A model generated the notes under the pieces. It did not search any database and was not told where the DNA came from. It saw only the letters and a list, made by a program, of their open reading frames with translations. Position numbers and translations under genes: made by a program. Of a stretch of 64,000 bases of DNA, positions 27,603-62,263 are shown in pieces. The stretch is taken from contig CAXXQS010000002.1 of the NCBI GenBank assembly GCA_963674735.2, positions 704,001-768,000 on the forward strand, read 5' to 3'. Position 1 is the first letter of the stretch. Each line of letters starts with the position of its first letter. Source of the stretch: Myxococcota bacterium. Lineage in GTDB: Bacteria; Myxococcota_A; SURF-8.

Positions 27603-29003
27603 TCAGGACAAAGGTCCTCCGGCGGGATCGGCAAAAACGCCGCTATCCGGTTTTTTCAGTTCACCTGACACATAATCCAATTCATCGAAGAACTGACGTT
27701 CATATTCCGCCGGCAGGTCTCGGGCCAGTCGAATGGCATCGGCCAACTCCGGTTGATGGCAAAGCGCGATCAGGTCGTCGTATAAGCGAACTTTTTCAGC
27801 CGACCCCAAAAGAGGAAAGAGATAGCCGTTAAGTTCGTCCAATGGCTTCCCCGCAATCAAAGGCTGCAAACGTTCCCACTCCTGCGACCCCGGCACCGGG
27901 GCCAATGGAGAAAAAATGGGCCGCGCACCCAGCATCACCATCGTAATGTAGGTACGAAACAGAAAACGGATCGTCTCGTCATCGTATGCAAATAATGAGC
28001 AGGAATGAAAACGGCCGACTTTGAACCCCACCTCGCGCAACAATCGTAACGTACGCACCGGCGCGCCGAAACGGTAAGGCTTTTTGAAGCGTTTCAACAT
28101 GATGGGGTCGGATGTCTCAAAGGGGATGGTCATCTGGTTCACTCCGGCCTTGAGCATTTTCTCGGCAATAGACGAGGTAAGCCGATTCGATTGAATCCCC
28201 ATATTGAAACTCATACGAACATCCGTTCCGGCCGCGATCATCAGGTCGAGAAACTGGTCGAGCGCGTCGGGAAACAGCATCACGTTGGGATCCCAGTTGG
28301 CAAACTGCCGGATACCAAAGCGTTTCCGAACCGCCAACAGATAATAGAGCACTTGTTTGGGTTTGAACCGCAGGGTGGGCTTCCAGCGATGATTGATACA
28401 AAAACTACATCGGTTAGAGCATCCTGTAGCCAGATTGAACAATCCGATTTCCGGCGGAGATTCGTAAAGCGACAGATCTCCGACTTCCCATTCGGCCGCC
28501 TCGTTTTTACCCTCGACGATGTCATCGGCCAGACTCGTGGCGGCATGCTCGGGCATCAATGTCGGATAAATTCCGCCGAGACGCACCGGGATGTCCGGAA
28601 AGACTTCCTTGCATACGGCGATGGCGTCGTGGGCGGTTTCCCAGTTGAAGGTCAGGCAGGCGGTTACCCATATTTCATCCGGACGCTCGCCGTCGTTCAG
28701 GGCTTTGCGAAGCTCGGACAGAGGACGCCCCAGCAGATAGGAAGGTCGCCATTCGCTGTCGACCCGATTGTTGCCCGAACGCTTGCGGCCGTACTCGGGA
28801 ACATGTGCGGGCCACTTGGATAAATACCAGCTTTTATAATGATCGTATTCCATCAGGTCGATCAGGCGCACCGAGTGCCCCTGTTTCTTCAACCAGGTTC
28901 CCAGTTTGAGTAACCCGTAGGGATAAGGCTCGGGATACTGCAGCAGTTGCCAGCGACTGACCACCTGAACCGGTGGATTGACGAAGACGATATGCTTGCC
29001 CAC
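27603..29003 (-). CDS. Cobalamin-binding radical SAM protein
   Basis: VFVNPP, PYGLLKLG, LGGIYPTLMPEH, GCSNRCSFC (CxxxCxxC), PVPGS; AGGAG RBS before GTG 29003. Confidence 0.88.
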   Translation of the reverse strand: MGKHIVFVNPPVQVVSRWQLLQYPEPYPYGLLKLGTWLKKQGHSVRLIDLMEYDHYKSWYLSKWPAHVPEYGRKRSGNNRVDSEWRPSYLLGRPLSELRKALNDGERPDEIWVTACLTFNWETAHDAIAVCKEVFPDIPVRLGGIYPTLMPEHAATSLADDIVEGKNEAAEWEVGDLSLYESPPEIGLFNLATGCSNRCSFCINHRWKPTLRFKPKQVLYYLLAVRKRFGIRQFANWDPNVMLFPDALDQFLDLMIAAGTDVRMSFNMGIQSNRLTSSIAEKMLKAGVNQMTIPFETSDPIMLKRFKKPYRFGAPVRTLRLLREVGFKVGRFHSCSLFAYDDETIRFLFRTYITMVMLGARPIFSPLAPVPGSQEWERLQPLIAGKPLDELNGYLFPLLGSAEKVRLYDDLIALCHQPELADAIRLARDLPAEYERQFFDELDYVSGELKKPDSGVFADPAGGPLS

Positions 29004-29016
29004 CTGAATCTCCTGT

Positions 29017-30048
29017 TTAGGGCGGATCAACCGGTACGTAGTACAGCGTGCCACGGGTCGAGTCACCTTGTACCAGCGATAAACGGCTCATACCCATTCG
29101 CCGCGAACCACACAGGTTGCGCCAACCATTCAAGGCTGATTTCCACTCCGATGATTCAGTGTACGCCTCAAGGCGTTCCGGCGTCAAACCATTGAGCGGA
29201 GCATTGAAGTCGAGTTCGGCACCGCTCGCAATTTCGACATATCCATCCGGTCGAAAACGTTGGATTATAACCGCGTCTCTCAAAACATTATCTTCGCACG
29301 CATGCGTTATTTCATCCATCATAGCCCAGTCTGGATAACGTGATTTCAACGAAACCAACGGCCAACGGCTGATCCGTTCGTATGTTTTAACGCGCAGTAA
29401 ACCCTGCTCGCAAAAGTCAGCCCCAATGAGATGCAGCCTCGACAAAGCGGCGGAATCGCCAAGATCGGGCGTAGTCGACAACAGGCGGTTCAACACAAAT
29501 TCCTTTTCTCGACGACACCCCGGAGGGAATTGCCAGTAAAGCTTGAACCGGCGCGCCTGCGGTCCGGCCTCCAGACCGAATAAGAGTTGAGGTGTAACAC
29601 CGGGGTCGGCCGCACGCAGAAGTGGTTCAGCCACCACCGACACCTCTGATCCGAAAGCGGCCAACATCACACGAAGCGTGGTCAAATCCAACGCCGCCGC
29701 CCCTCGCGCAAAGGCCGGAAAACTAATGGAAAAACGGTAAGGAAAAACGTCATCGCCGCGCCAGGCAAACGAATACTCCAAGCAAAACGCATAACGCGTC
29801 ATTACGCGTTCAAGGTGAGCGCAGAGATGCCGCTCCATTTTCTTGTAAGGAACAGCCACGCGACCGGAGTTGAGTCCGGCCATGTCCCGCATCGCCGTGA
29901 AATGAGCCTCCACCGACCGCAGGTCCAGGAGACGACGGTCTTGGTAGCAAGCCGGATACACCTCGCTTCTTCCCCGATCGAGATCGGGACAACCGGGAGA
30001 TGCCCGGCAGAAGACACAACGGGCCGTTGGAAGATTCGTCTTTGTCAT
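29017..30048 (-). CDS. Putative ABBA-fold prenyltransferase, LynF/TruF/PagF-like, with N-terminal Cys cluster
   Basis: Motif series CLEYS..YRF, QLLFGLE..RFKLY, LHLIGADF..G..RVKTY, terminal TLYY; N-terminal CVFC-x5-C-x13-C. Confidence 0.55.
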   Translation of the reverse strand: MTKTNLPTARCVFCRASPGCPDLDRGRSEVYPACYQDRRLLDLRSVEAHFTAMRDMAGLNSGRVAVPYKKMERHLCAHLERVMTRYAFCLEYSFAWRGDDVFPYRFSISFPAFARGAAALDLTTLRVMLAAFGSEVSVVAEPLLRAADPGVTPQLLFGLEAGPQARRFKLYWQFPPGCRREKEFVLNRLLSTTPDLGDSAALSRLHLIGADFCEQGLLRVKTYERISRWPLVSLKSRYPDWAMMDEITHACEDNVLRDAVIIQRFRPDGYVEIASGAELDFNAPLNGLTPERLEAYTESSEWKSALNGWRNLCGSRRMGMSRLSLVQGDSTRGTLYYVPVDPP

Positions 30049-50685: not shown

Positions 50686-52743
50686 TCATTCAAGATGCAC
50701 GGGGGCTTGCCACACTCCGCTGTTGCGTGTGAAATTCCAGCGCTCGGTTTGTCCTTTCTCGGTCAGGTCCACCTGGAAGGGACCGAACGAGGGCGTATCC
50801 TCGTTGTCGATATAGATGTTGATCGTCGCGGTCGCTTCTTCTTTCCCGAGGCTGGTCAAGCACAGGTAATTGAGCGGATCGTTCACGGCATACGGGCAAT
50901 TCTCATCGAAATTGAGACGGAACTCGTAAGTGCCATCAGGCGCGTAAGCGTGGGTGACGGTCTCGGTCGTACACACCGAGGCGGAACCACAACCCATCAG
51001 GTTGATGGTGCCATAAGCGCTTGGAACCTGGCAGGTTCCCGTGCTGGCCGCGCAAACCTCCTCATTGTAAAGGTTCCCGAGTGGGATGACATACATCAAA
51101 TCCACATCGCTCAAAGCGCTGATTCCGCTATAACTCGCCTGAATACGCATGGTGGACAATCCGGCCGTGGCGGTTACCTCGACATTCTTCGGATCCGATT
51201 CATCCCCCTGCTCATCGGTCACCACCAACGAAATCAGGTAATTGCCCGCCACATCAAAGAGCAATGAAACCGTTGGCGAGGTCGTGTCGGGAATCAGGTT
51301 GGCCACCGACGCAGGCGGTTTGGTGAGATACCATTGGAAGGTCAGATTACCCGAATTTCCATCGGGATCCCGACTGATGGCCCCATAGAACGTCTTGGTG
51401 GAACCCACCGGAATTTCGAGTGGCGCACCGATGTCGGCACCGTTTTCCACCTGAGAGACACGCGCTTCGGGTTTTTCGTTGCGCGCACTCCCCTCCGCCA
51501 GAATGGGGAAGTAGAAACTGGTTCCGTTGAAATCGGTATCGACCCGCAGCTCGGCGTCGTAGTTTTCAACGGCACTGGGATTGAAGGTCAACTGAAATTC
51601 GTGATTGGCTCCGGCCGCCAAAGCAACCGGGTCCATGCCACCGGCCGATGAAGTGAAGATGGTCTGCCAGTTGTCAATGCCGGTGATCCGTAAAGAGGTG
51701 ATATTGATTTCGCCCACATCTCCTTTGTTGGAGAGCCGGACATCCAAGGGTTTCGCACCAAAAAGTGGAACCGATCCGAAGTTCAGGACGGGTGGGGTCA
51801 TGTAAATCTGGCCGATCACAGCATCGCCGCTGATCGGGACTTCGAGCACCTGACCGGCACTGTCGAGATTGGTATGGTATTCGACAACCAATTTATCGCT
51901 GTATTCACCCGCCGTTATGGGATCGAACCAGATGGTGAACGGCGACGAGGAACTCGCCGCGATGGTCAGCGGCTCGTCCTCGCTGATTTCCAATTCGTGC
52001 TCATAACTAAACGGCTGAGCGCCGTTGGATTGCATGTATACTTGGGTCACGATGATCTGGCTCGATCCGGTGCCCAGGTTGCCGATTTTAAGGCGCTTCT
52101 GGGCCGCGTGGGTACCCAAAGCTTTCTCTTCGAATTCCACCGCATCGGGATCCGAACCGATCTCGGCCTCCCCGATTTCCTTAACGGCATCGCCCGCTAA
52201 ATTCAACGTCGCCTCAGGCATGTTATCGCTATCATTCGAAATACGTAGAACTCCGGGATTCTCTCCCAGGACGATGGGCTGGAAACGGATTTTGAACGTG
52301 AAACTCTGACCCGGTTGAATGGTCGCTTCCATATAGCCGTCGAGCGACCAGGGGTTGTCCACTTGCGGTTCAGTGAAGGTCGCCTCGTAGAGGTGCATCG
52401 CCTGATTACCATCGTTGTAAATCACCACATCGGCAAAGGCCGAGTCGACCAGTTGCACTTCGCCGAAGTCCAACGTTCCGTCGGGGGTCATGCGAAAGAT
52501 GCGGGTGGGGTTGGGGTCATCGCCATCGGCCGGCAAATCGCCATCGATGGGAATACACACCTGATCCGCACCGCAAACCTCGCCGCTTGGACAATTGGAA
52601 TCCGTGGTGCAAGGGGTATCGCCATCCGCCCCATCCCCGTCGGGAGCGGTCGAGCTGCCGCCGCCGCAACCGGCCATCCATAGAGCGGCAAACGCCAAAG
52701 CCATCCAGATTAACGGACGAATACGGGTTTCGTGAGACGTCAT
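50686..52743 (-). CDS. Surface lipoprotein: Cys module, three ASH/choice-of-anchor-D Ig-like domains and a PKD-like domain
   Basis: Lipobox MAGC; CTTDSNCPSGEVC; LDFG.V..N.G repeats; SRDPDG..LTFQW..GNY.ISLVVTD. Confidence 0.8.
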   Translation of the reverse strand: MTSHETRIRPLIWMALAFAALWMAGCGGGSSTAPDGDGADGDTPCTTDSNCPSGEVCGADQVCIPIDGDLPADGDDPNPTRIFRMTPDGTLDFGEVQLVDSAFADVVIYNDGNQAMHLYEATFTEPQVDNPWSLDGYMEATIQPGQSFTFKIRFQPIVLGENPGVLRISNDSDNMPEATLNLAGDAVKEIGEAEIGSDPDAVEFEEKALGTHAAQKRLKIGNLGTGSSQIIVTQVYMQSNGAQPFSYEHELEISEDEPLTIAASSSSPFTIWFDPITAGEYSDKLVVEYHTNLDSAGQVLEVPISGDAVIGQIYMTPPVLNFGSVPLFGAKPLDVRLSNKGDVGEINITSLRITGIDNWQTIFTSSAGGMDPVALAAGANHEFQLTFNPSAVENYDAELRVDTDFNGTSFYFPILAEGSARNEKPEARVSQVENGADIGAPLEIPVGSTKTFYGAISRDPDGNSGNLTFQWYLTKPPASVANLIPDTTSPTVSLLFDVAGNYLISLVVTDEQGDESDPKNVEVTATAGLSTMRIQASYSGISALSDVDLMYVIPLGNLYNEEVCAASTGTCQVPSAYGTINLMGCGSASVCTTETVTHAYAPDGTYEFRLNFDENCPYAVNDPLNYLCLTSLGKEEATATINIYIDNEDTPSFGPFQVDLTEKGQTERWNFTRNSGVWQAPVHLE

Positions 52744-52897: not shown

Positions 52898-52926
52898 TTG
52901 ACTTTGCCCGTCACGTAAGACACAAT
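52898..52926 (+). promoter_or_regulatory. Sigma70-type promoter of the nitrogenase-like pair
   Basis: TTGACT-17-CACAAT about 70 nt upstream of TTG 52998. Confidence 0.5.
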
Positions 52927-52997
52927 CGGAGCTGTATCAGGAAAGCTATTCCATATCCAGCGCCTTTCCGGGCAACCCACAAGCGGAGCTTTGCAAT

Positions 52998-55094
52998 TTG
53001 ACATCACCGCGCGCCTTCATTTCTCACCTCGATCGCTTTCAGGACACCGCCCGACGGTTGGGGGCGCGAGTGGTTCTTCCACGTCCGGACGGCAGCCTGC
53101 TGGCCGTATGGACACATGACGATCAACGTGCCGAGTTGATTTGGCAACCACGCGCAATTGCGGGGGAAATAACCGATGATCGTCTGGCAGGCGAGTTCGT
53201 CGTTCGGGGTTTGGACGATGAACACATCAAACAAGCTTTGGATGTCTTCGCCGACCTTCAAGCGATGCCCAATCCTTTTCCGCCGCCTATTTCCGACGAC
53301 CCGAAGCAGCCGATACAGCTCAACCGCTGGTTTGTTCACGCTCATTTAACCTCGCATCTGGAAGTAGGACGTAGCGTGTGGGGACCGTTCCGACTGGCCA
53401 AAGTAAGCGAAAACGGCCCTCAGATCATACGCTTGCATTTCGAGGGAACCCAACCTCCCCTGGTAGTCGAAATCGGAAGTCTGCAAGCCGTCGAGAACGA
53501 CCTTGCAACGAATGGGTGGCACCCCGCCCCACCGCTGGCGCTACGCGTCTGCTCGGTTCCCGATACCGCCTCGCTAAACTCACCTCTGGCGCTTAAGGTA
53601 TTGGATTATCTCCGCTTCGCCCTCGCACGCAGTTTCACACCCGATCAACCGCTACAAACGCTCGGAACGGACGATCTTCCACCGGAAACGTCCCAAACCA
53701 AGACAAGCAAGCAGCAAGCCGAATTCGATCCACGCGATGAAATCGACCCCGGTCGATTTTTTATCGGTTGGTTGCGCCCAGGTGCAACCGAGGGAATTAG
53801 CACGCTTTTCGACGATCCCGACTTGGCGATTATCCTTTATGGAGCCAATTCCTGCTGCATGAAACATCCAGTCATCGACATCGACGATCCGGGCGCAGCC
53901 GGTGCCGCCCGTTTCGATGCGCTGGCTTTGACCCTGCCGCAAAGACGGGTGGCGGTGAGCAACATGCACGAGTTGGACCTGATCCTCGGCGACGAAACCG
54001 CTTTTCGTCAGGCCCTGGAGGATGCAATCGCCAACTCGAAAGCTAGAGCCGTCGTTGTGATCGCAACTTGTGTCGTGGATATGATCGGATCGGACTTGCA
54101 CGGTATTGTGAAAATGGCTCAGGATCGCAGCGACAAGCCGGTTTTATTGTTCGAAACCCGGCCCCAGTTTGCCGAAGCCGATTATTTGGGCGATATCTGG
54201 TCAACCTTATTCGAGATTGCCGATCCTCGGGAAGTTCCGAAGAAGCGGCACATCAACGTGATCGGTCTAGCGGCCCCCGCAAGCCGTAGCGCCCGAACTC
54301 TGAGGCGGGAATTGGCCGAACTGGACCTGACGGTCAACCACTTTTTTTTCCCTTCCTTCCGATTGCAGGCGCTCAGCGAGTTTTACCGGGCGGAAACATC
54401 GATCATCGCCGACACGCTGGCCACGCGCCTCGAATTCGCCACGATCGCAACCCGACTCCCCGAAACCCATCGCCATGCTCTCGATCCGCCCTTCGGCCTA
54501 GCGGCCAGCCTGAAATTCTATCGCTACATCGCAGAGTTGTGCGGAATCGAGGAAACGAAATACAAAACCGCAGTGACGCGTATCTGGAAAGCACAAGCGA
54601 CGGAATGGGAACATCTCCAATCCCGCGCCAAATCTTTTCGCGTCCTGCTGGTAATATCGCCGGAGGATGCCGACTTCCTGCTGGACCCCGGTTCTCGTTA
54701 CGGGTTGGACCTTCCCGCCATCCTGCTTGAAATGGGCTTTTCTTTGCAGATTCTGTGTCTGCCGCAAGAGCGTCCTTCGGATGCGCTAGCCCTGCGCGAT
54801 CGCCTCGCGCAAACGATCTCAGTTCGTGTCCCAAACACGGCAAACCTGTGTTTCGACGTTCTGGCCGATGTTTCCACCTTGCCGGAATGGTTGGCCAAAT
54901 CCGACGCCTCCCTGTTATTCAGCGAATTTCCGGGAGATACCCGCGCCCTTCAAGCCGGGCTGTTGCCCTTGACGCCGCATCACTTCGAGCCGGGATTGGC
55001 CGGTGCACGCCGGACTTTGAGGCGGCTGGTGCGTCTGGCCGAAGCCTCCAAGCGGCTGCTAGGAAAAGATGTCAAAGGAGGAAAGCGCTCATGA
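52998..55094 (+). CDS. Nitrogenase component-1-like oxidoreductase, subunit A, with about 240-aa N-terminal extension
   Basis: ILYGANSCC, SNMHELDLILGDE.AFRQALEDA, VVVIATCVVDMIGSDL, INVIG, PPFGLAAS..F..IA, LLEMGF, FEPGLAGA. Confidence 0.75.
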   Translation: MTSPRAFISHLDRFQDTARRLGARVVLPRPDGSLLAVWTHDDQRAELIWQPRAIAGEITDDRLAGEFVVRGLDDEHIKQALDVFADLQAMPNPFPPPISDDPKQPIQLNRWFVHAHLTSHLEVGRSVWGPFRLAKVSENGPQIIRLHFEGTQPPLVVEIGSLQAVENDLATNGWHPAPPLALRVCSVPDTASLNSPLALKVLDYLRFALARSFTPDQPLQTLGTDDLPPETSQTKTSKQQAEFDPRDEIDPGRFFIGWLRPGATEGISTLFDDPDLAIILYGANSCCMKHPVIDIDDPGAAGAARFDALALTLPQRRVAVSNMHELDLILGDETAFRQALEDAIANSKARAVVVIATCVVDMIGSDLHGIVKMAQDRSDKPVLLFETRPQFAEADYLGDIWSTLFEIADPREVPKKRHINVIGLAAPASRSARTLRRELAELDLTVNHFFFPSFRLQALSEFYRAETSIIADTLATRLEFATIATRLPETHRHALDPPFGLAASLKFYRYIAELCGIEETKYKTAVTRIWKAQATEWEHLQSRAKSFRVLLVISPEDADFLLDPGSRYGLDLPAILLEMGFSLQILCLPQERPSDALALRDRLAQTISVRVPNTANLCFDVLADVSTLPEWLAKSDASLLFSEFPGDTRALQAGLLPLTPHHFEPGLAGARRTLRRLVRLAEASKRLLGKDVKGGKRS

Positions 55095-56380
55095 AAATCA
55101 CGCCTTACTTCCTATCCGGTATATATCTGACATTGGCGGCACGACCGGACGTCGTCGCCCTGATCGACGCCCCTCGTTGCGAACAAGACGTGGGCGGGCG
55201 GGGCGGTTTCTTGCAAGACCGCAGGGGAACGCTTTTTGGCGACGGTGCCTACGCACGCAATCGACGCGTCTATTCGCCCGGCCACTGGATGCACCCGGGG
55301 GCGAGTTCCTCTGCCGAAGACGACCTGCTGAAGACTCTCGACAGCATCGCCGAGCGACATCCGAACAACCCCATCCTGCTCGCACGCGGATACCTGTCGG
55401 CACTGGCCAACACCGATCTGGCCGGGTTGGCGAGCGAGTGGTCGGAACGGACAGGTCACCGAATCGCAACGGTGTCCCAGGGGTCGCTGGACGATGATTG
55501 GCGCGATGGCGCAGCTGCCGCGCAACTCGCACTCCTGAGCATCTACGAAAATGACGACGCCCCGCTCCGTCCCTTGATTACAGGTTGGGGACCCATGCGC
55601 ATGGAAGGCGACGAAATTGGCAACCTGATTGAATTGCAAAGGCTTTTCGCCTTGGCCACCGGGACGGATGCGGGTTTTCTGCTTGACGGTCAACTAAACG
55701 GCGCCTGGCATCGGCCCGACGCTCCGCATATCGTACTGGGTGAGACCGACCCGGAAAACGCGATTGATTCCCTGCAACTTCCCGCCCTACCTTACGGCTT
55801 GGGGGCAACGGACGCCTTCGTACGAAAGCTGGCGGAACATCGTCATGAATTCTCGAACGATCCAGCCACGTTCGATGTATCCGTCTGGGATCGTGAACGC
55901 CAAGAAACCCAAGAGCAACTCTTGCCGCTGGCTATCCGGCAACTGGCCGGACGCGGAGCGGCCGTGGTCGCGGATCCGGCCCGCGCACGGGGACTGACGC
56001 ATGCCTTGCGAGAACTGGGGCTGGAAGTCGCCCAGGTCTACCTGTTGCGAAGGATGGATGCCGTTTGTCCGGAAGCGGACGAACTCAGCGCCCTTGGAGT
56101 GCAGGTTCTGCGCGACTCGGATTATTACGATGCCCGCGCGACGCTTTTCGAGGCCGCCGAGGACGGTGCCATCGAGGTCATCGTGGGAGCGGGAATTTTT
56201 CTGGATGCGACCCGCGAAGCCGGGCTGGCTTACGTTGAAGAAGGATTTCCTTGTTATCTCGACCACTTCATCATGCCGACGCCCACAATGGGAACTTACG
56301 GACTGTTGTATCTCGCCGAACGGCTGGACCGAGCATTAGCCCAACGCGCCCACCGCAACCGGAATCAAACTCGCGGTTGA
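55091..56380 (+). CDS. Nitrogenase component-1-like oxidoreductase, subunit B
   Basis: ATGA overlap and GGAGG RBS; LIDAPRC, LPYGLGATDAFVRKLA, LAGRGAAVVADP..LRELGLEV, EEGFPCY.DH...PTMGTYG. Confidence 0.72.
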   Translation: MKITPYFLSGIYLTLAARPDVVALIDAPRCEQDVGGRGGFLQDRRGTLFGDGAYARNRRVYSPGHWMHPGASSSAEDDLLKTLDSIAERHPNNPILLARGYLSALANTDLAGLASEWSERTGHRIATVSQGSLDDDWRDGAAAAQLALLSIYENDDAPLRPLITGWGPMRMEGDEIGNLIELQRLFALATGTDAGFLLDGQLNGAWHRPDAPHIVLGETDPENAIDSLQLPALPYGLGATDAFVRKLAEHRHEFSNDPATFDVSVWDRERQETQEQLLPLAIRQLAGRGAAVVADPARARGLTHALRELGLEVAQVYLLRRMDAVCPEADELSALGVQVLRDSDYYDARATLFEAAEDGAIEVIVGAGIFLDATREAGLAYVEEGFPCYLDHFIMPTPTMGTYGLLYLAERLDRALAQRAHRNRNQTRG

Positions 56381-56384
56381 CTTT

Positions 56385-56951
56385 CTACATCCTTTTCCCG
56401 CTTTCGGCCTCATGTTCGCGAATCAACCGACCCGGCAAACGGAAAAGCAAAAGACCATAGCTCAGAATCACGAACAGCAGCAAACCGACCCACGGCCACA
56501 CCATCCAGGACGGCAAGCTGTCGAATTGACCCGTAGCCAGTCCGACGGTGGCATGCGCAATACCCGCAAACAATAAATTGCAGCATAGCGCCATCGAGAT
56601 CATCATTTCAGTAACCACGCGAAAATACGCATCCTGCTTAACAGCCGGTAACTTTAAAAAAAGCTCTTTGCGTGGCAGGTTGACCCATTCGGGATGACGG
56701 GCGACCATCCAGCGGACAAGCCATGTCAGGCCATAAAGGAGAAGACTCATCAGCCAGGGAAACAATACGAAAAGGGCAATCAACTCAAAGCCCTTATTCG
56801 TCCAGCGGTCGGGTTCATTATGGAAATCGAAATGAATCGGCACGCGCTCGGGTAGAACATCCCACACTCGCCAGGCAAACCAGGGCAGATAGACCAAAAG
56901 CAGTGCATTTCCGACATGATAGAGGTTGAGGCGTAAACGGACGGACAACAT
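56385..56951 (-). CDS. DUF1648-domain membrane protein
   Basis: LPERVPIHFDFHNEPDRWTNK, PEWVNLP, four TM helices. Confidence 0.85.
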   Translation of the reverse strand: MLSVRLRLNLYHVGNALLLVYLPWFAWRVWDVLPERVPIHFDFHNEPDRWTNKGFELIALFVLFPWLMSLLLYGLTWLVRWMVARHPEWVNLPRKELFLKLPAVKQDAYFRVVTEMMISMALCCNLLFAGIAHATVGLATGQFDSLPSWMVWPWVGLLLFVILSYGLLLFRLPGRLIREHEAESGKRM

Positions 56952-57184
56952 ACCGGTTTCCTTTCGTTTTCCTAACCACAACAATCGCTTTCACGATCAA
57001 ACACAAGCAGATAGTTCTTGCTTCGCAATGTACACGGCTGTGAAAGAAAAGGCAACCAAGGCCTTGTTTTTTCAGAAACTTTCCGCTTTATACGATGTCT
57101 TTCCGTCTTTTGGTCACCCGTGAAAACGAATCTGCCAGCAAAAGACCTTGTGATCGGAGGCCGTCGCGGCTACAATGCCGCCCC

Positions 57185-59075: not shown

Positions 59076-60284
59076 TCAAGACAGACGGCTTCGGTACTCC
59101 TCGATGACTCCTTGTTTACTAATCGTATGGCGAGCCAGACGTTTCCGAACGGCCAGATCGTCCCAGGCAGGCTGCACTCCGATTTCACGGGCCGCTTTAG
59201 CCGCATCCTGGCGCGCGCTGTCTTTGACCTTCTCCCCCATGTGACAGTCGTCACCCATGGTGACCAAGAGTGGACGCTGCCGACGCGTAGCGGTTCGATT
59301 GAGACGCTGGACCGCACTGATCAGAAATTCCGTGTAGGCACGCGATTGCGGGTTCCACACCTCAAAGCCATCGACATCGTAATCGGCCAGCAAAATCGGC
59401 CAAAACTGCTCCGGATGCGGCACGATGATTCCCGCCCCACAGCTGCGTGCTTCTTCGATTATTTCGTTGACCTCGTAAAAATGTCGAGGATTGAATGCCC
59501 GTTTCACTTCAACCTTGATCGCGCGCAGCAACAGTTGAGCGTGGTCGATAAAACGGTCGGCATAGACGTTGCGAAGGCCATCGAAAAATTCACGCACCAA
59601 TTTATTGCGCAACATTTCAGGCGCAGCGCGCGACTCATTCCGCTCGATGAGTTGGATCAGCTTCCTTGAATAGATTTGCACAAAGCGAACCAGAACCGGA
59701 TCCGCCGATGATTCTTTCACCGCCCGTTCAAGACGATCGGCAAAAGCCGAGTCAAGAATGGAGGCGAGAAATTCAAGAAGCTGATTCGACCGGTAGTTGA
59801 AGGTATGGTCAATCATGCCTTTCAGGATGTCGGCCTGCTGCAAACGCTCGGTCTTGAAATGCATGAGCAACTGAACCTTCAAGCGAAACGCCTTGGCATA
59901 ACAATCGACTTCAACACCGGAATAGCCCTGGCGGTCGAGAATGCGGTTGTGTTGAGTCGGCACGATAAACTGGCACTCGGCATGGGGAAAGGTGGCCGCG
60001 AGACGCTGTTCGATCAGGTTCATGGGTACGAACTCGGGATGCCAATGCAGCCCCATCACCACTTGCTCACCGGAAAGAACGCGATGAGGTTGGACAATCC
60101 GTTGTTCCTGCTCGGGGGTCAACGTGGTCGACGTCACGGTGTCGTAAATAGCCTGATCCTCTTCGGTGACCTCTTCAGAGATAAAGGCAAGTTCCGACAC
60201 GCTTTGCGGATACAAACCGTTGCGAGGATTCACCGTCACATGGATTTCCGGTCGACCGAAACTCGGGTCATCGTGCTTAGCCAT
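59076..60284 (-). CDS. Conserved protein with PHP-like C-terminal motifs (GAK-associated)
   Basis: LHWHPEFVP, IPTQHN-like motif, VPHPEQFWP, DGFEVWNP, MGDDCHMG; AGGAG RBS. Confidence 0.7.
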   Translation of the reverse strand: MAKHDDPSFGRPEIHVTVNPRNGLYPQSVSELAFISEEVTEEDQAIYDTVTSTTLTPEQEQRIVQPHRVLSGEQVVMGLHWHPEFVPMNLIEQRLAATFPHAECQFIVPTQHNRILDRQGYSGVEVDCYAKAFRLKVQLLMHFKTERLQQADILKGMIDHTFNYRSNQLLEFLASILDSAFADRLERAVKESSADPVLVRFVQIYSRKLIQLIERNESRAAPEMLRNKLVREFFDGLRNVYADRFIDHAQLLLRAIKVEVKRAFNPRHFYEVNEIIEEARSCGAGIIVPHPEQFWPILLADYDVDGFEVWNPQSRAYTEFLISAVQRLNRTATRRQRPLLVTMGDDCHMGEKVKDSARQDAAKAAREIGVQPAWDDLAVRKRLARHTISKQGVIEEYRSRLS

Positions 60285-60528
60285 GGCATCTCCTGGAACC
60301 CAGCCATACAGTCGATGGATACGGCGCAACTCCGGACCGCATACGCGAATCAAGATGGGGTTAACCGGGTTTCTGTTCTTCCAAATGATTAAACACTTGG
60401 AATGTTAGGCGGCTATTAATTCTTTCTTGGCCCCATCGTATCATGAATGAGGGAGGAATCGGAAGCGATGCATCTAAATGCTTATTTCAGCCTTATTTTC
60501 CGGGATAATCTCGCCGCAATGAATCGCT

Positions 60529-60876
60529 TCAATCTCGCCTGTTCGCCAAGATTTCTTCGATGGCACGTCCGTCTTCCTGCTCCTCCACCCCTTGTTTGAC
60601 GGCCTTGTAATGAGCCATCAATGTTTCGGCAAATTCGGACTGGGCCTGCTGCGTTTGCGAGCCCGTCACCATCGGACGTTGAAGCATGAGACGCAGATAG
60701 CTTTCGTAGGGTTTTTCGGAGGTATACATTTTAAGCGTGTAACGCGCCACGAACGATCCGCAAGCGGCGCACTCGACAAACACTTCCACATCCTCGCCGG
60801 GCATGATGCGCATGTAATTCTTGAGTTCGACGCCGTCGCAGTTCGGGCAATGCTCCAGTCGGGATGTGCCGCGCAT
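60529..60876 (-). CDS. Small zinc-ribbon protein
   Basis: CPNC ... CAAC; AAGGAGG RBS overlapping the upstream stop codon. Confidence 0.75.
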   Translation of the reverse strand: MRGTSRLEHCPNCDGVELKNYMRIMPGEDVEVFVECAACGSFVARYTLKMYTSEKPYESYLRLMLQRPMVTGSQTQQAQSEFAETLMAHYKAVKQGVEEQEDGRAIEEILANRRD

Positions 60877-60889
60877 GGTCAGTCCTCCT

Positions 60890-62263
60890 TTACGCACCGA
60901 ACACCACCACGCAATAATACACGTAGAACAGGGAGAGCACCACCCCGAAAAGCGTCATCAACAATCCGACTTTAAGCATGTCGGAGACCGCGATCATGTC
61001 GGAACCGTAAGCGATGGCGTTGGGCGGAGTCGAGACGGGCAGAGCCATGCCGTAGGAGGCCGACAAGGCCGCCACGGCAGCGAAGTAGATGGGATCGGCC
61101 CCGCTGAGCGAGAGCGCGATAGGGGCGACCAGATTGGCGCTGGCGGTGTGGCTCATGAAGGTAGCCAGCAAAGCCGTGAGGGTTCCCATGATCAAACCGG
61201 CCATCAGCGGAGACAGGGCATTGAGGTTCAGTAGTTCCACCACCGACCGGCTCAGTCCCGTTTCTTGAATGGCCGCGCCCAGCGCAATCCCTCCACCGAT
61301 CAACAGCAGAATCTCCCAAGGCAGCTCCCTCAGATCACGGCGATTGGACAAACCCGCCACGGAAAAAACCAACACCGGCAACATGGCCACGACCGCCGAG
61401 GGAATCCCATGCCAGAAATCGGTGAGCCACAGAAGCACCGTCAAAGCAAAGGTGGTGTAAACGATTCCATGGCGGCTGGCCGCCCCCTCCTGCGCAGTGG
61501 AAATCCGCAAGTCACCCGCTTCTTTTCCGGGTGGAAAGAACAGCAACAGCGCCGCCCAGCACAAAATCAGCAAGACCAACATGGGCGGCACGCCATACAG
61601 CACCCACTGCACAAACGAGACGTTGATTCCACGATCGGCCAAAAGGCCGATGGCAATGGCATTGGGAGGCGTGCCGATGGGCGTCCCCACCCCGCCGATA
61701 TTGGCGCTGAACGGAATGCCCAGCATGAGCGCGCGTGCAAAAGGCGACCCTTTGGGAAGCTTGCGTACCACCGGCAACATGGCCGCCACCATGATGGCGG
61801 TGGTCGCCGTGTTGGACATCCACATCGACAAGAAGGCCGTCAGTCCCATAATACCCGCCAGCACCACCGATGGACGCGACCCGAGACGGGTGAGCACGGA
61901 ATTGGCGAAACTGACATCCAGATTGTATTTGGCAAAGATGCGTGCAAGAAAAAAGCCGCCGAACATCAGAATCACCACCGGACTAGCAAACGGCGACATA
62001 AACAAGCTGTAACGGTACGGTTCGAAGCCGAACAGATGGGCCAGCGGATCGAGCAGAAGCTGAATGGCTACCGCACCCATCAGGGCGGTGACGTAAAGCG
62101 GAATGATTTCGGTGATCCAGAAGAAAACAACCGTCGTGAAGACAGCGGCGACCAGACGAGCCGGGGTCGGCAACGCCCCACTGATGGCGAAAACCGCCAG
62201 CGCCAGAATCAGCCCGACTACGGAAAAAAGGACGTTGTGCGTCACCGATTTCGGTTTGCGCAT
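60890..62263 (-). CDS. SLC13/DASS-family anion permease
   Basis: WITEIIPL, SMWMSNTAT, ANIGGVGTPIGTPPNAIA, FMSHTA, LPVSTPPNAIAY. Confidence 0.92.
   Translation of the reverse strand: MRKPKSVTHNVLFSVVGLILALAVFAISGALPTPARLVAAVFTTVVFFWITEIIPLYVTALMGAVAIQLLLDPLAHLFGFEPYRYSLFMSPFASPVVILMFGGFFLARIFAKYNLDVSFANSVLTRLGSRPSVVLAGIMGLTAFLSMWMSNTATTAIMVAAMLPVVRKLPKGSPFARALMLGIPFSANIGGVGTPIGTPPNAIAIGLLADRGINVSFVQWVLYGVPPMLVLLILCWAALLLFFPPGKEAGDLRISTAQEGAASRHGIVYTTFALTVLLWLTDFWHGIPSAVVAMLPVLVFSVAGLSNRRDLRELPWEILLLIGGGIALGAAIQETGLSRSVVELLNLNALSPLMAGLIMGTLTALLATFMSHTASANLVAPIALSLSGADPIYFAAVAALSASYGMALPVSTPPNAIAYGSDMIAVSDMLKVGLLMTLFGVVLSLFYVYYCVVVFGA

What the first reader, a model, noticed from the sequence alone, without database searches (positions are those of the whole stretch)
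52998..56380. Orphan, highly divergent nitrogenase-like heterodimer pair without FeMo-co ligands or adjacent NifH
Seen: two translationally coupled genes (ATGA overlap) with their own sigma70-type promoter, both showing the motif order of the nitrogenase component-1 fold (PF00148). Subunit A has YGANSCC and IATCVVDMIGSDL at the positions of NifD Cys88 and Cys154. It has no Cys at the Cys62 position and none at the FeMo-co ligand Cys275 position (RAETSIIAD). Subunit B keeps one Cys (IDAPRC) and lacks the later TC motif. No nifH/bchL, nifB or nifEN lies in the window. Knowledge: this superfamily includes NifDK, BchNB, BchYZ, CfbD and MarDK. From memory, divergent paralogues co-occurring with radical SAM genes were reported in Elusimicrobia and some Myxococcales (Meheust et al. 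2020), with unknown function. Inference: this is not N2 fixation. The 3+1 Cys count would suit one interfacial [4Fe-4S] cluster as in DPOR/COR, acting on an unknown substrate.
Basis: partly seen in the sequence, partly recalled or inferred. Interest (0 to 1): 0.88.

Follow-up and report, generated by a model that had tools for sequence, protein, structure and literature searches.

The report
Third nitrogenase-like DK pair, NflH elsewhere
These two overlapping genes encode a very divergent nitrogenase-like enzyme pair of an already reported but uncharacterised group; its missing partner gene sits at two other places in the same genome, so it is real and unusual but not a new kind of system.

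Summary
Gene A (52998-55094, 698 aa) and gene B (55091-56380, 429 aa) overlap by ATGA. Both pass Pfam PF00148, and an AlphaFold model of A matches NifD/K/E/N and MarD folds.

The pair is not orphan at genome level. The genome carries three A-B pairs, and two of them have an adjacent NifH-like gene. There is no NifB and no other PF00148 gene.

The pair belongs to a large family. 335 clusters at 50% identity score E<=1e-30, and 76 of 401 sampled genomes of the window's phylum have a match. The family is usually arranged H-A-B and often lies next to giant radical SAM genes. It also occurs in an Elusimicrobia genome and in 10 of 201 sampled genomes of that phylum. This fits the 'Group VI' nitrogenase-like group of Meheust et al. 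2020.

Only three Cys are conserved across the family:
- A Cys286, the NifD Cys88 position
- A Cys358, the NifD Cys154 position
- B Cys30, the NifK Cys95 position

This suits one interfacial [4Fe-4S] cluster. A3 is at most about 35% identical to any protein found. It carries a 220-residue N-terminal domain with no Pfam or PDB match. Function is unknown, and the pair most likely uses an NflH encoded elsewhere. Verdict: new member of a known kind, moderate interest.

The parts
52898..52926 (+). Promoter-like site TTGACT-17-CACAAT, about 70 nt upstream of gene A. It is weak.
   Evidence: 9 of 12 matches. The region had 2 sites against 1.3 +/- 1.2 in shuffles, so this is not above chance.
52985..52988 (+). 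GGAG Shine-Dalgarno-like motif, 9 nt before the TTG start
   Evidence: Read directly from the sequence.
52998..55094 (+). Gene A3 (698 aa): NifD/NflD-like subunit made of an N-terminal domain plus a PF00148 core
   Evidence: The start agrees with the alignment to paralogue A2 and relatives. The same 698-aa protein is on record (P0003). The AF2 model has pLDDT 87.1. Foldseek top hits are NifK/NifN/NifD/NifE/MarD at E about 1e-15 and 13-18% identity.
52998..53657 (+). Family-specific N-terminal domain of A3 (residues 1 to about 220, two alpha+beta halves). A low-confidence linker follows, to about residue 250.
   Evidence: No Pfam hit at E<=10. The model of residues 1-245 has pLDDT 89.2 and pTM 0.85. 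Foldseek against the PDB gave 0 hits at E<=0.001. VIA-align wide gave a best Z of 5.5, below its stated noise level. The domain is matched in 63 of 150 best family representatives.
53853..53855 (+). Codon of A3 Cys286 (NifD Cys88 / CfbD Cys39 position), a proposed cluster ligand. Cys287 follows at 53856-53858 and is not conserved.
   Evidence: Invariant in 46 of 46 family sequences. Aligned to the Cys of HGPVGC in Nif references. Codon checked.
53946..54929 (+). Stretch of A3 matched by Pfam PF00148 (residues 317-644)
54069..54071 (+). Codon of A3 Cys358 (NifD Cys154 / CfbD Cys94 position), a proposed cluster ligand
   Evidence: Invariant in 46 of 46 sequences. Aligned with the Cys of solved NifD-like chains and of Nif references. 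Codon checked.
55091..55094 (+). ATGA overlap: the start of B and the stop of A (translational coupling)
55091..56380 (+). Gene B3 (429 aa): NifK/NflK-like subunit
   Evidence: PF00148 at 67.4 bits. It is 42.7% identical to paralogue B2. All 7 columns invariant in 23 family B sequences are kept: G10, D43, R59, G165, R170, D174, P234.
55178..55180 (+). Codon of B3 Cys30 (NifK Cys95 / BchB Asp36 position), a proposed third cluster ligand
   Evidence: Cys in 28 of 29 family B sequences. It is aligned to the GPGC/GPKGC Cys of group-IV and Cfb-type sequences. The later T/S-C site is ARGY in B3. Codon checked.

Best explanation
A3 and B3 are the catalytic (NifDK-like) component of a nitrogenase-like reductase of the 'Group VI' NFL type. 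They are the third of three paralogous pairs in this genome, which probably belongs to Myxococcota.

Inferred mechanism:
- The pair forms an A-B heterodimer or A2B2 tetramer.
- It holds one simple iron-sulfur cluster, most likely a [4Fe-4S], at the subunit interface.
- The cluster is bound by A Cys286, A Cys358 and B Cys30, plus a fourth ligand that is not a family-conserved Cys. Candidates are A3's own Cys287 or an invariant acidic residue of B.
- Electrons arrive one at a time from an ATP-hydrolysing NifH-like homodimer encoded elsewhere. H2 at C2:235.8 kb is the likelier donor, because A2/B2 is the nearest paralogue. H1 at C1:1.58 Mb is the alternative.
- The electrons pass on to an unknown organic substrate, not to N2.

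Shown here: family and fold, the conserved residues, the paralogue set, the absence of NifB/NifEN, and the recurrence of H-less pairs. Inferred: cluster type, the donor, and reductase activity. Unknown: the substrate.
For: **Family and fold**
- PF00148 is met by both proteins.
- The fold of A matches NifK/NifN/NifD/NifE/MarD.

**Paralogues in the genome**
- There are three A-B pairs and two NifH-like genes. The H genes score 272.7 and 265.9 bits on PF00142, and each lies beside a paralogous pair.
- H1 and H2 keep the P-loop and both cluster Cys. These columns are invariant in 16 of 16 family H sequences.
- No NifB passes its cut-off, and there are no PF00148 genes beyond the six.

**A discrete family**
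- On the family A profile, members score 235 or more. Every Nif, Cfb or group-IV D/K-like ORF in the 80 named loci scores 125 or less.
- In a FastTree of the A core, a 97 SH-like branch separates 155 family rows from 7 outgroup rows.
- In the H tree, the family H proteins lie outside the 75 Nif/Cfb-type H rows across a 97 branch.
- The family is large. 1460 representatives score E<=1e-3 and 335 score E<=1e-30. 76 of 401 sampled genomes of the phylum have a match. 10 of 201 sampled Elusimicrobiota genomes match at E<=1e-40.

**Ligands**
- A Cys286 and Cys358 are invariant in 46 of 46 sequences. B Cys30 is Cys in 28 of 29.
- These positions equal NifD Cys88 and Cys154 and NifK Cys95.
- CfbD binds its [4Fe-4S] with exactly the Cys88/Cys154-equivalent pair (review section 6.2 read).

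**H-less pairs are normal in this family**
- 4 of 20 fetched regions of relatives have A-B genes and no H gene.
- All 4 of those genomes have exactly one family-type H gene elsewhere.

**Signs that the pair is intact**
- Both frames are open and coupled.
- A3 keeps all 8 columns invariant in the 46-sequence alignment.
- A3 keeps 37 of 47 columns conserved at 70% or more, the 28th lowest of 155.
- B3 keeps all 7 invariant columns.

**Complex prediction**
- A3 core plus B3 with a 4Fe-4S riding along gave weak support: ipSAE 0.46 against a best control of 0.00.
- The mark was reached by 58 of 80 solved complexes and 2 of 110 mismatched pairs. At 0.60 or under it was reached by only 7 of those 80 and by both mismatches that passed.
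- Like complexes are solved, so this shows likeness, not binding.
Against: - No biochemical or expression data exist for this pair or for any member of the family.
- B3 keeps only 36 of 67 columns conserved at 70% or more, the 2nd lowest of 29. It has private changes: Thr at a column that is Gly in 28 of 28 others, a gap of about 10 residues near 215-224, and W197L. However, the B of G046, which lies in an H-A-B operon of the same subfamily, scores equally low at 36 of 69.
- A3 has a long terminal branch of 1.27-1.29, against 0.6-0.9 for its nearest rows.
- The five genomes of the same taxonomic family have no counterpart of A3. Their best matches are 22-25% identical. So the pair is not conserved among close kin.
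- Only three Cys are conserved, so the cluster type is a guess.
- None of the three loci in this genome has a radical SAM gene nearby; the nearest PF04055 match to each lies about 19-25 kb or more away. The hallmark context of the group is therefore missing here.
- Which H serves the pair is inference only.
Confidence: 0.6

Rival explanations
1. The pair is a relic or a repurposed paralogue. It arose by duplication or transfer within the family, lost its own H gene, and no longer works as a reductase. It would be drifting, or serving as a scaffold or regulator.
For: - No H gene lies beside it.
- A3 has a long branch.
- B3 is the second least conserved of 29 B sequences and has private losses.
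- No counterpart was found in five same-family genomes.
- No protein more than about 35% identical was found among 1.84 billion representatives.
Against: - The two open frames of 698 and 429 codons are still coupled by ATGA.
- Every family-invariant residue is kept, including the three Cys.
- The A3 model is confident, with pLDDT 87.
- The B of a complete H-A-B operon in the same subfamily is equally divergent.
- H-less pairs are common in the family.
- GC (0.57 and 0.61) is close to the window's 0.557.
Confidence: 0.15
2. The pair is a tetrapyrrole reductase, like DPOR, COR or CfbCD, that makes a novel cofactor. This is the proposal of Meheust et al. for Group VI. It concerns the substrate and is compatible with the best explanation.
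For: - Three of the characterised nitrogenase-like enzymes with a simple [4Fe-4S] cluster reduce tetrapyrroles (review section 2.4).
- The authors point to HemN_C and B12-binding radical SAM neighbours in Elusimicrobia (passages read).
- A carries the CfbD-type Cys pair.
Against: - Isethionate reductase (Group IV-F) is also predicted to use a [4Fe-4S] cluster, and it cleaves a sulfonate. Cluster type therefore does not fix the substrate.
- The neighbours I annotated around this pair and the two paralogous loci include no tetrapyrrole gene. They are a PMT glycosyltransferase, CvpA, a methyltransferase, a secreted Ig/PKD protein, DUF1648, RluA, an ATP-grasp protein, PAS kinases, HD-type response regulators and DUF1015.
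- The two radical SAM neighbours of relatives that I scanned matched PF04055 only.
- I did not search the genome for tetrapyrrole synthesis genes.
Confidence: 0.2
3. The H-less pair works without any NifH-like ATPase and takes electrons from ferredoxin or another donor.
For: - No H gene lies in the window.
- The genome has three pairs and only two H genes.
Against: - All characterised members of the superfamily covered in the review sections I read need their H-type reductase.
- All 4 of the 4 relatives' genomes with H-less pairs that I checked keep exactly one family-type H gene.
- An H-less third pair beside Mar systems is on record in Rhodopseudomonas palustris (passages read).
Confidence: 0.04
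4. It is a true nitrogenase or a NifEN-like cofactor maturase.
For: The best NCBIfam and PDB sequence matches of A are NifEN, NifE and NifD. All are weak: 39 bits or less, and E 0.0015 or worse against the PDB.
Against: - All scores are far below the curated cut-offs. NifEN scores 39.4 against 1229, and nifD 18 against 653.6.
- Only 3 of the 6 P-cluster Cys positions are filled.
- A has no conserved Cys or His at the cofactor site.
- There is no NifB and no further PF00148 gene.
Confidence: 0.01

Closest known systems
Group VI nitrogenase-like (Nfl) systems of Elusimicrobia, Gracilibacteria and Myxococcales (Meheust et al., bioRxiv 10.1101/765248, passages read; review PMC13474568 section 7, read)
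   Same: - The NifH-like partner has a P-loop and two cluster Cys.
- The D- and K-like subunits are very divergent, with at most four of the six P-cluster Cys. Here three are present.
- There is no NifB or NifEN.
- There are several D/K copies per genome.
- The family occurs in an Elusimicrobia genome and in Myxococcales-labelled genomes.
- Radical SAM genes lie beside the loci in 7 of 20 relatives' regions.
   Different: - This pair has no H gene and no radical SAM gene nearby.
- A3 carries a roughly 220-residue N-terminal domain that the passages I read do not mention. My Elusimicrobiota hits do not cover its first half: none of the 29 listed places starts before model position 135.
- I could not compare with the paper's own sequences, because the supplements are closed.
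[quoted passage not shown]
   Same: The catalytic subunit binds a bridging [4Fe-4S] cluster with the Cys88- and Cys154-equivalent pair. A3 keeps exactly these two.
   Different: - CfbD is a homodimer with 2+2 Cys. Here a distinct B subunit brings only one Cys.
- The TIGR03282 score is 28.3 against a cut-off of 268.4.
- H1 and H2 score 276-285 against the CfbC cut-off of 402.
DPOR BchNB/ChlNB (Group V)
   Same: It is a heteromeric N-B pair with one interfacial [4Fe-4S] cluster and an asymmetric ligand set. B3 Cys30 lies in an 'APxC' motif that I recall as the place of the BchB Asp ligand.
   Different: - DPOR uses three Cys from N plus Asp from B. Here there are two from A plus Cys from B.
- BchN scores 25 against 420, and BchB 26 against 490.
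NflDK3 of Rhodopseudomonas palustris, an H-less third DK pair beside two Mar systems (bioRxiv 10.64898/2026.08.20.746119, passages read)
   Same: It is a third paralogous DK pair without its own H gene, in a genome with two complete H-D-K systems, and its function is unresolved.
   Different: - That pair belongs to the Mar-like Group IV, at 52-56% identity to MarDK. It has P-cluster-type ligands and lies 9 kb from a MarH gene among sulfur genes.
- A3/B3 are 31-43% identical to their nearest paralogue and lie on the same contig about 520 kb from H2.
NifDK / NifEN
   Same: The fold is the same: Foldseek E about 1e-15 and TM to target 0.52-0.72. The gene order D then K and the translational coupling are also shared.
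   Different: Identity is 13-18%. There are no FeMo-co or L-cluster ligands, half of the P-cluster Cys are missing, and there are no maturation genes.

Membership tests
Nitrogenase component 1 type oxidoreductase (Pfam PF00148) | Score above the Pfam gathering cut-off | tested here: met
   A scores 85 bits and B 67.4 bits against a cut-off of 28.6.
Nitrogenase component 1 type oxidoreductase (Pfam PF00148) | Three-domain NifD/K fold | tested here: met
   The A3 model has pLDDT 87.1. 138 PDB chains match at E<=0.001, and the top hits are NifK, NifN, NifD, NifE and MarD. B3 was not modelled on its own.
Nitrogenase NifDK/VnfDK/AnfDK | Three Cys in D plus three Cys in K for the P-cluster | tested here: not met
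   Only the Cys88- and Cys154-equivalents in A and the Cys95-equivalent in B are present.
Nitrogenase NifDK/VnfDK/AnfDK | Cys275 and His442 ligands of the cofactor | tested here: not met
   A3 has no Cys between residues 359 and 514. The 46-sequence alignment has no conserved Cys beyond the two, and no invariant His. The exact equivalent of His442 was not aligned residue by residue.
Nitrogenase NifDK/VnfDK/AnfDK | Curated NCBIfam equivalog cut-offs | tested here: not met
   nifD scores 18 against 653.6, nifK 13.3 against 427.3 and vnfK 14.2 against 874.
Nitrogenase NifDK/VnfDK/AnfDK | NifB and NifEN present in the genome | tested here: not met
   The best NifB match is 22.6 bits against a cut-off of 343.65. 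Only six PF00148 matches exist, and they are the three pairs. Genome completeness is 94%.
DPOR BchNB / COR BchYZ (Group V) | Equivalog cut-offs, and a ligand set of three Cys in N plus Asp in B | tested here: not met
   BchN scores 25 against 420 and BchB 26 against 490. BchY and BchZ gave no hit for A3 or B3 at E<=10. The first Cys of N is absent, and B has Cys rather than Asp.
CfbD (Group IV-B) | Equivalog cut-off and a homomeric enzyme | tested here: not met
   TIGR03282 scores 28.3 against 268.4. A distinct B gene is coupled to A.
CfbD (Group IV-B) | Cluster bound by the Cys88- and Cys154-equivalent pair | tested here: met
   A Cys286 and Cys358 are invariant and fall at those positions. 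This shows likeness in how it works, not membership.
Methylthio-alkane reductase MarDK (Group IV-C) | P-cluster and L-like cluster ligands, MarB/NifB, and close sequence similarity | tested here: not met
   The chains of 9fmg and 9d9u match B3 only at E 1.3e-5 over residues 77-315 (titles). The ligands are missing. No NifB-like gene passes the cut-off.
Group VI NFL (Meheust et al. 2020) | NifH-like partner with an ATP-binding loop and two cluster Cys, placed outside NifH groups I-V | tested here: inconclusive
   - H1 and H2 have the P-loop and both Cys.
- They score below the cut-offs of nifH, CfbC, BchL and BchX.
- They lie outside 75 Nif/Cfb-type H rows across a 97 branch.
- No BchL or BchX sequence was in the tree, so 'sibling of group V' was not tested.
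- The partner gene is not at this locus.
Group VI NFL (Meheust et al. 2020) | D/K-like subunits very divergent from NifDK, with at most four of the six P-cluster Cys and no cofactor ligands | tested here: met
   Three of six positions are filled. Identity to solved Nif chains is 13-18%.
Group VI NFL (Meheust et al. 2020) | Homologues in Elusimicrobia and in Myxococcales-labelled genomes, several copies per genome | tested here: met
   - Locus L078, titled Elusimicrobia bacterium RBG_16_66_12, carries H-A-B-A'-B' with family A scores of 393 and 235. That genome has three A-type genes.
- 10 of 201 sampled genomes of that phylum match.
- L075, titled uncultured Myxococcales bacterium, has an H protein identical to that of G016, a genome of the window's phylum.
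Group VI NFL (Meheust et al. 2020) | Radical SAM genes next to the locus | tested here: not met
   At none of the three own loci is a PF04055 match close by; the nearest to each lies about 19-25 kb or more away. The feature is met in 7 of 20 relatives' regions. The paper itself says the number ranges from none to 13.
Group VI NFL (Meheust et al. 2020) | Clustering with the paper's own NifH, NifD and NifK sequences | not testable with these tools
   The sequences are in supplements, which are closed. The genomes named in the text (GWA2_69_24, GWC2_56_31, GWF2_62_30) were not among the 80 loci returned.

The most novel reading that the evidence does not exclude
A3B3 may be a functionally distinct reductase. 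Its interfacial [4Fe-4S] cluster would be held by only three Cys. That would leave a unique iron, or a non-Cys ligand, free to act on the substrate. The N-terminal domain has no match in the PDB and might bind or deliver a non-tetrapyrrole substrate. On this reading, Myxococcota would have spread one shared NflH over several such DK modules, and the system would be a new catalytic mode within the nitrogenase superfamily.
Probability: 0.12. Interest if true: 0.75.

Novelty: new member of a known kind. Interest (0 to 1): 0.45.

Why it matters
Group VI is the one large branch of the nitrogenase superfamily with no known reaction. The 2026 review says so in its section 7.

This genome offers a compact test set of two NflH genes and three very different DK pairs. 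The DK pairs are only 21-43% identical to each other.

The work here adds four usable facts:
1. Only three Cys are conserved across the family.
2. Many Myxococcota-type A subunits carry a confident N-terminal domain with no known fold match.
3. H-A fusion proteins exist.
4. H-less DK pairs with a single H gene elsewhere are a normal arrangement.

None of this reveals the substrate. The finding therefore sharpens an open question rather than answering it.

Tried and rejected
**Sequence and literature look-ups**
- Word-indexed homology search: A found only itself, and B found nothing. The family was found only by the full HMMER scan.
- ESM Atlas: only generic PF00148 clusters at 0.86, so no lead.
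I have no source names for the representatives.

**Locus searches**
- The search for related loci with A-family alignments of 46 and of 8 rows failed, because no stretch was conserved enough. I used an H alignment instead.
- Two metagenome scans, one with P0009 and one with an A3+P0009+P0018 alignment, gave no confirmed relative. The gene context of A3's nearest relatives stays unknown.

**N-terminal domain**
- Foldseek against the PDB gave nothing at E<=0.001.
- VIA-align wide gave a best Z of 5.5, on KA1-like and helix-grip/LysR-effector-like folds at Z 4-5.5. This is under the tool's stated noise of 7-8. It shows neither a new fold nor a relationship.
- A profile-profile comparison with the unmatched N-extensions of other family members used only 4 sequences and gave nothing, E 0.42.

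**Other tests**
- tblastn of the two giant radical SAM neighbours of relatives against the own genome gave only generic radical SAM hits, 38% identity or less. There is no clear orthologue.
- Sister relation of A3 and A2, meaning a recent duplication in this genome: the free tree does not join them. Holding them together costs 13.1 lnL, with p-AU 0.047. This is borderline, and I named the group after seeing a first tree.
- Sequencing runs: no RNA holder is listed. Three DNA-type rows of one study hold the stretch. I did not lay reads. This says nothing about expression.
- Cys-Cys distances could not be measured.
- I did not search for tetrapyrrole synthesis genes, and I did not include BchL, BchX, BchN, BchB, BchY or BchZ sequences in any tree.
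- The supplements of Meheust et al., which hold the sequence sets and gene-neighbourhood figures, could not be seen. They may already show the N-terminal domain and the Myxococcales loci.

Full report
**What is there**

- Two ORFs fill the reported interval exactly. Gene A runs 52998-55094, has a TTG start and encodes 698 aa. Gene B runs 55091-56380, has an ATG start and encodes 429 aa. They share ATGA at 55091-55094.
- The TTG start is credible. GGAG lies 9 nt upstream. The N-terminus aligns with those of paralogues and relatives. The same 698-aa protein is on record.
- The upstream gene (50686-52743) is divergent and the downstream gene (56385-56984) is convergent. The pair is therefore a two-gene unit behind a 254-nt spacer.
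Such sites are no more frequent here than in shuffles, 2 against 1.3 +/- 1.2.

**Family and fold**

- Both proteins pass Pfam PF00148, at 85 and 67.4 bits against a cut-off of 28.6.
- No curated NCBIfam model comes near its cut-off. For A: NifEN 39.4 against 1229, nifE 34.5 against 505, CfbD 28.3 against 268, BchB 26 against 490, BchN 25 against 420, nifD 18 against 654. For B: vnfK 14.2 against 874.
- Sequence matches to solved structures are weak. A's best is E 0.0015 to a NifD-like chain. B's best is E 1.3e-5 to the chains of 9fmg and 9d9u, which are methylthio-alkane reductase (titles).
- An AlphaFold2 model of A3, built on a 46-sequence family alignment, is confident at pLDDT 87.1. Its C-terminal 450 residues match NifK, NifN, NifD, NifE, VnfK and MarD at Foldseek E about 1e-15 and 13-18% identity.

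**The pair is not orphan in its genome**

- The window is C2:704001-768000 of a 5.26-Mb genome in 3 contigs, 94% complete.
- PF00148 matches six places, which are three A-B pairs.
- PF00142 gives two strong NifH-like genes, at 272.7 and 265.9 bits. Each lies beside one of the other pairs: H1-A1-B1 at C1:1.577-1.581 Mb and H2-A2-B2 at C2:235.8-240.1 kb.
- The paralogues are far apart. A3 is 33.5% identical to A2 and 21.3% to A1. B3 is 42.7% identical to B2 and 25.3% to B1. H1 and H2 are 44.9% identical.
- No NifB passes its cut-off; the best match is 22.6 bits against 343.65.
- The genome has 73 radical SAM matches, but none lies close to any of the three loci; the nearest to each is about 19-25 kb or more away.
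- The neighbours of the window pair are unrelated in function: a PMT-type glycosyltransferase, CvpA, a methyltransferase, a secreted Ig/PKD protein, DUF1648, RluA, an ATP-grasp protein and a CitMHS transporter.
- Loci 1 and 2 are flanked by PAS or 7TMR histidine kinases and by HD-type response regulators.

**A large, discrete family**

- A profile of A1-A3 searched against 1.84 billion representative proteins found 1460 at E<=1e-3, 667 at E<=1e-10 and 335 at E<=1e-30.
- In 401 sampled genomes of the window's phylum, 76 have a match at E<=1e-10, counting the own genome. All 5 genomes of the same family match. The weaker matches (about 1e-13 to 1e-40) are probably other PF00148 proteins.
- In 20 fetched regions of relatives, 16 carry an H gene next to A-B, in the order H-A-B or A-B-H. 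The other 4 have A-B, A-B-A or two A-B pairs and no H gene.
- All 4 of those genomes have exactly one family-type H gene elsewhere. An H-less pair is therefore a normal arrangement in this family.
- By BLAST clustering, giant ORFs with two radical SAM stretches lie in 7 of the 20 regions. One representative of each of the two clusters was checked in Pfam.

**Link to the published Group VI**

- A scan of named genomes with an H alignment returned 80 loci.
- On my family profiles, only three of these 80 loci carry A-like ORFs scoring 235 or more. They are titled 'uncultured Myxococcales bacterium', 'Elusimicrobia bacterium RBG_16_66_12' and an unnamed 'bacterium'. Every Nif, Cfb or group-IV-type D/K ORF in the other loci scores 125 or less.
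- The H protein of the Myxococcales-titled locus is identical to that of G016, a genome of the window's phylum. The phylum is therefore probably Myxococcota.
- The Elusimicrobia genome has three A-type genes. 10 of 201 sampled genomes of its phylum match at E<=1e-40, several of them with 3-5 places.
- Trees agree with this picture. A 97 SH-like branch separates 155 family A rows from 7 Nif- and group-IV-type rows. The H proteins of family loci lie outside a 97-supported set of 75 Nif/Cfb-type H rows. Both are FastTree trees with long branches.
- H1 and H2 score below the cut-offs of nifH, CfbC, BchL and BchX.
- These traits fit what Meheust et al. describe for Group VI:
  - a new NifH group in Elusimicrobia, found also in two Gracilibacteria and 14 Myxococcales genomes
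  - divergent D/K subunits lacking P-cluster Cys
  - no maturation genes
  - several copies per genome
  - radical SAM neighbours ranging from none to 13 (passages read; review section 7)
- I could not compare with their sequences because the supplements are closed. Membership is well supported but not proven.

**Ligands**

- Across 46 full-length A sequences, the invariant columns include just two Cys, Cys286 and Cys358.
- Across 29 B sequences, one Cys is conserved, Cys30, in 28 of 29. B also has invariant Asp43, Arg59, Arg170 and Asp174.
- With Nif references aligned to the family profiles, Cys286 and Cys358 fall on the Cys of HGPVGC and SECPIGLIGDD. B Cys30 falls on the GPGC Cys. Where the references have the second T/S-C, B has ARGY.
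- The conserved set is therefore the NifD Cys88 and Cys154 positions plus the NifK Cys95 position, 3 of the 6 P-cluster positions.
- CfbD binds its [4Fe-4S] cluster with the same two A-type positions from each monomer.
- A single interfacial [4Fe-4S] cluster with three Cys and an unidentified fourth ligand is the simplest reading. It remains inference.

**The N-terminal domain**

- A3 residues 1 to about 220 form a confident two-lobed alpha+beta domain, with pLDDT 89.2 and pTM 0.85 when modelled alone.
- It has no Pfam match, no Foldseek match in the PDB at E<=0.001, and only noise-level VIA-align scores, best Z 5.5.
- Of the 150 best family representatives:
  - 63 match the domain from its start
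  - 15 match only its second half
  - 13 have 180 or more unmatched residues instead
  - 59 have fewer than 180 residues before the core
- Six of the 150 carry a NifH-like domain fused in front. So does one A gene of the Elusimicrobia locus.
- None of the 29 Elusimicrobiota places starts before profile position 135.

**How isolated is A3/B3?**

- Its best identities are about 33-35%, to A2, P0006 and P0009.
- In five genomes of the same taxonomic family, the best matches are 22-25% identical and correspond to the A1 type.
- Among the fetched loci, only G046 shares the A2/A3 subfamily. Its A is 29% and its B 37% identical.
- In an IQ-TREE of 28 rows, A3 sits in a 100-supported 20-row clade as its own long branch of 1.27. 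A2 pairs with the G046-type protein at 96 support. Forcing A2 and A3 together costs 13.1 lnL, p-AU 0.047, which is borderline.
- A3 keeps 37 of 47 well-conserved core columns, the 28th lowest of 155.
- B3 keeps 36 of 67, the 2nd lowest of 29, and has a few private losses. The B of the complete G046 operon scores the same, 36 of 69. The low score is therefore a trait of the subfamily rather than a clear sign of decay.
- GC is ordinary: 0.57 for A, 0.61 for B and 0.557 for the window.

**Complex prediction**

- A3 core plus B3, with a 4Fe-4S cluster riding along, gave weak support. ipSAE was 0.46 (runs 0.49, 0.46, 0.46) against a best control of 0.00. Partner pLDDT was 82 or more, and the runs agreed in at least 36% of contacts.
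- The mark was reached by 58 of 80 solved complexes and 2 of 110 mismatched pairs. At 0.60 or under it was reached by only 7 of those 80 and by both mismatches that passed.
- Nif-type complexes are solved, so the pass may reflect likeness only. No contacts were returned, so the convergence of the Cys residues could not be checked.

**Verdict**

It is a divergent extra member of an already reported but uncharacterised group. Its reductase partner is encoded elsewhere in the genome. An H-less third DK pair also has a precedent in the Mar-type systems of Rhodopseudomonas palustris. The new details are the 2+1 conserved Cys set, the unmatched N-terminal domain, the H-A fusions and the regular occurrence of H-less pairs. 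They are useful for whoever takes on Group VI, but they do not reveal the reaction.

Noticed in passing
window 34922-40199 (- strand): A complete rRNA operon (5S, 23S, 16S) with two tRNA genes in the 16S-23S spacer.
   Followed up: no
window 27603-29066 (- strand): A 487-aa ORF with a radical SAM match (PF04055 at window 28011-28436), about 24 kb upstream of the pair. It is the nearest radical SAM gene. No link to the pair is shown.
   Followed up: no
L078 9783-12089; proteins P0046, P0058, P0101, P0103, P0123, P0131: Fusion proteins with a NifH-like domain in front of the A core occur in the family. They are 6 of the 150 best representatives. One of them (P0058) has the H domain, then the N-domain, then the core. 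One gene of the Elusimicrobia locus is also a fusion.
   Followed up: partly
L069 7379-12236 and L070 7751-12642 (G133, G168): An A-B-A gene arrangement with no H gene in the 20-kb region. The single family-type H gene lies on another contig.
   Followed up: partly
L072 6578-8929 and 13545-16541; L073 2157-8767 (own loci 1 and 2): The two complete H-A-B loci of this genome are flanked by sensor histidine kinases (7TMR-DISM or Cache plus PAS domains) and by three response regulators with HDOD or HD domains. Similar kinase and regulator clusters recur beside family loci in G036, G054 and G268.
   Followed up: partly
G348:C256, G268:C4, G022:C100, G171:C25, G517, G583: Some A-like matches in other genomes contain one or two in-frame stop codons (TGA or TAA). 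They may be pseudogenes, frameshifts or recoding.
   Followed up: no
window 59076-60353 and 60529-60897 (- strand): ORFs of 425 aa and 122 aa have no Pfam match at E<=0.001. The 425-aa ORF overlaps the start of a RimK-like ATP-grasp gene by 4 nt.
   Followed up: no
G000:C2:848916-849617 (L003), outside the window: A third, weak PF00142 match (43.2 bits, just over the cut-off) lies about 89 kb downstream of the pair. It is probably a different P-loop ATPase.
   Followed up: no
L090 5812-6825 (Intestinimonas massiliensis): An H-like protein on a long branch falls outside the 75 Nif/Cfb-type rows in the H tree. Its neighbouring PF00148-like ORF scores only 25 bits on the family A profile. The placement is unreliable.
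   Followed up: no
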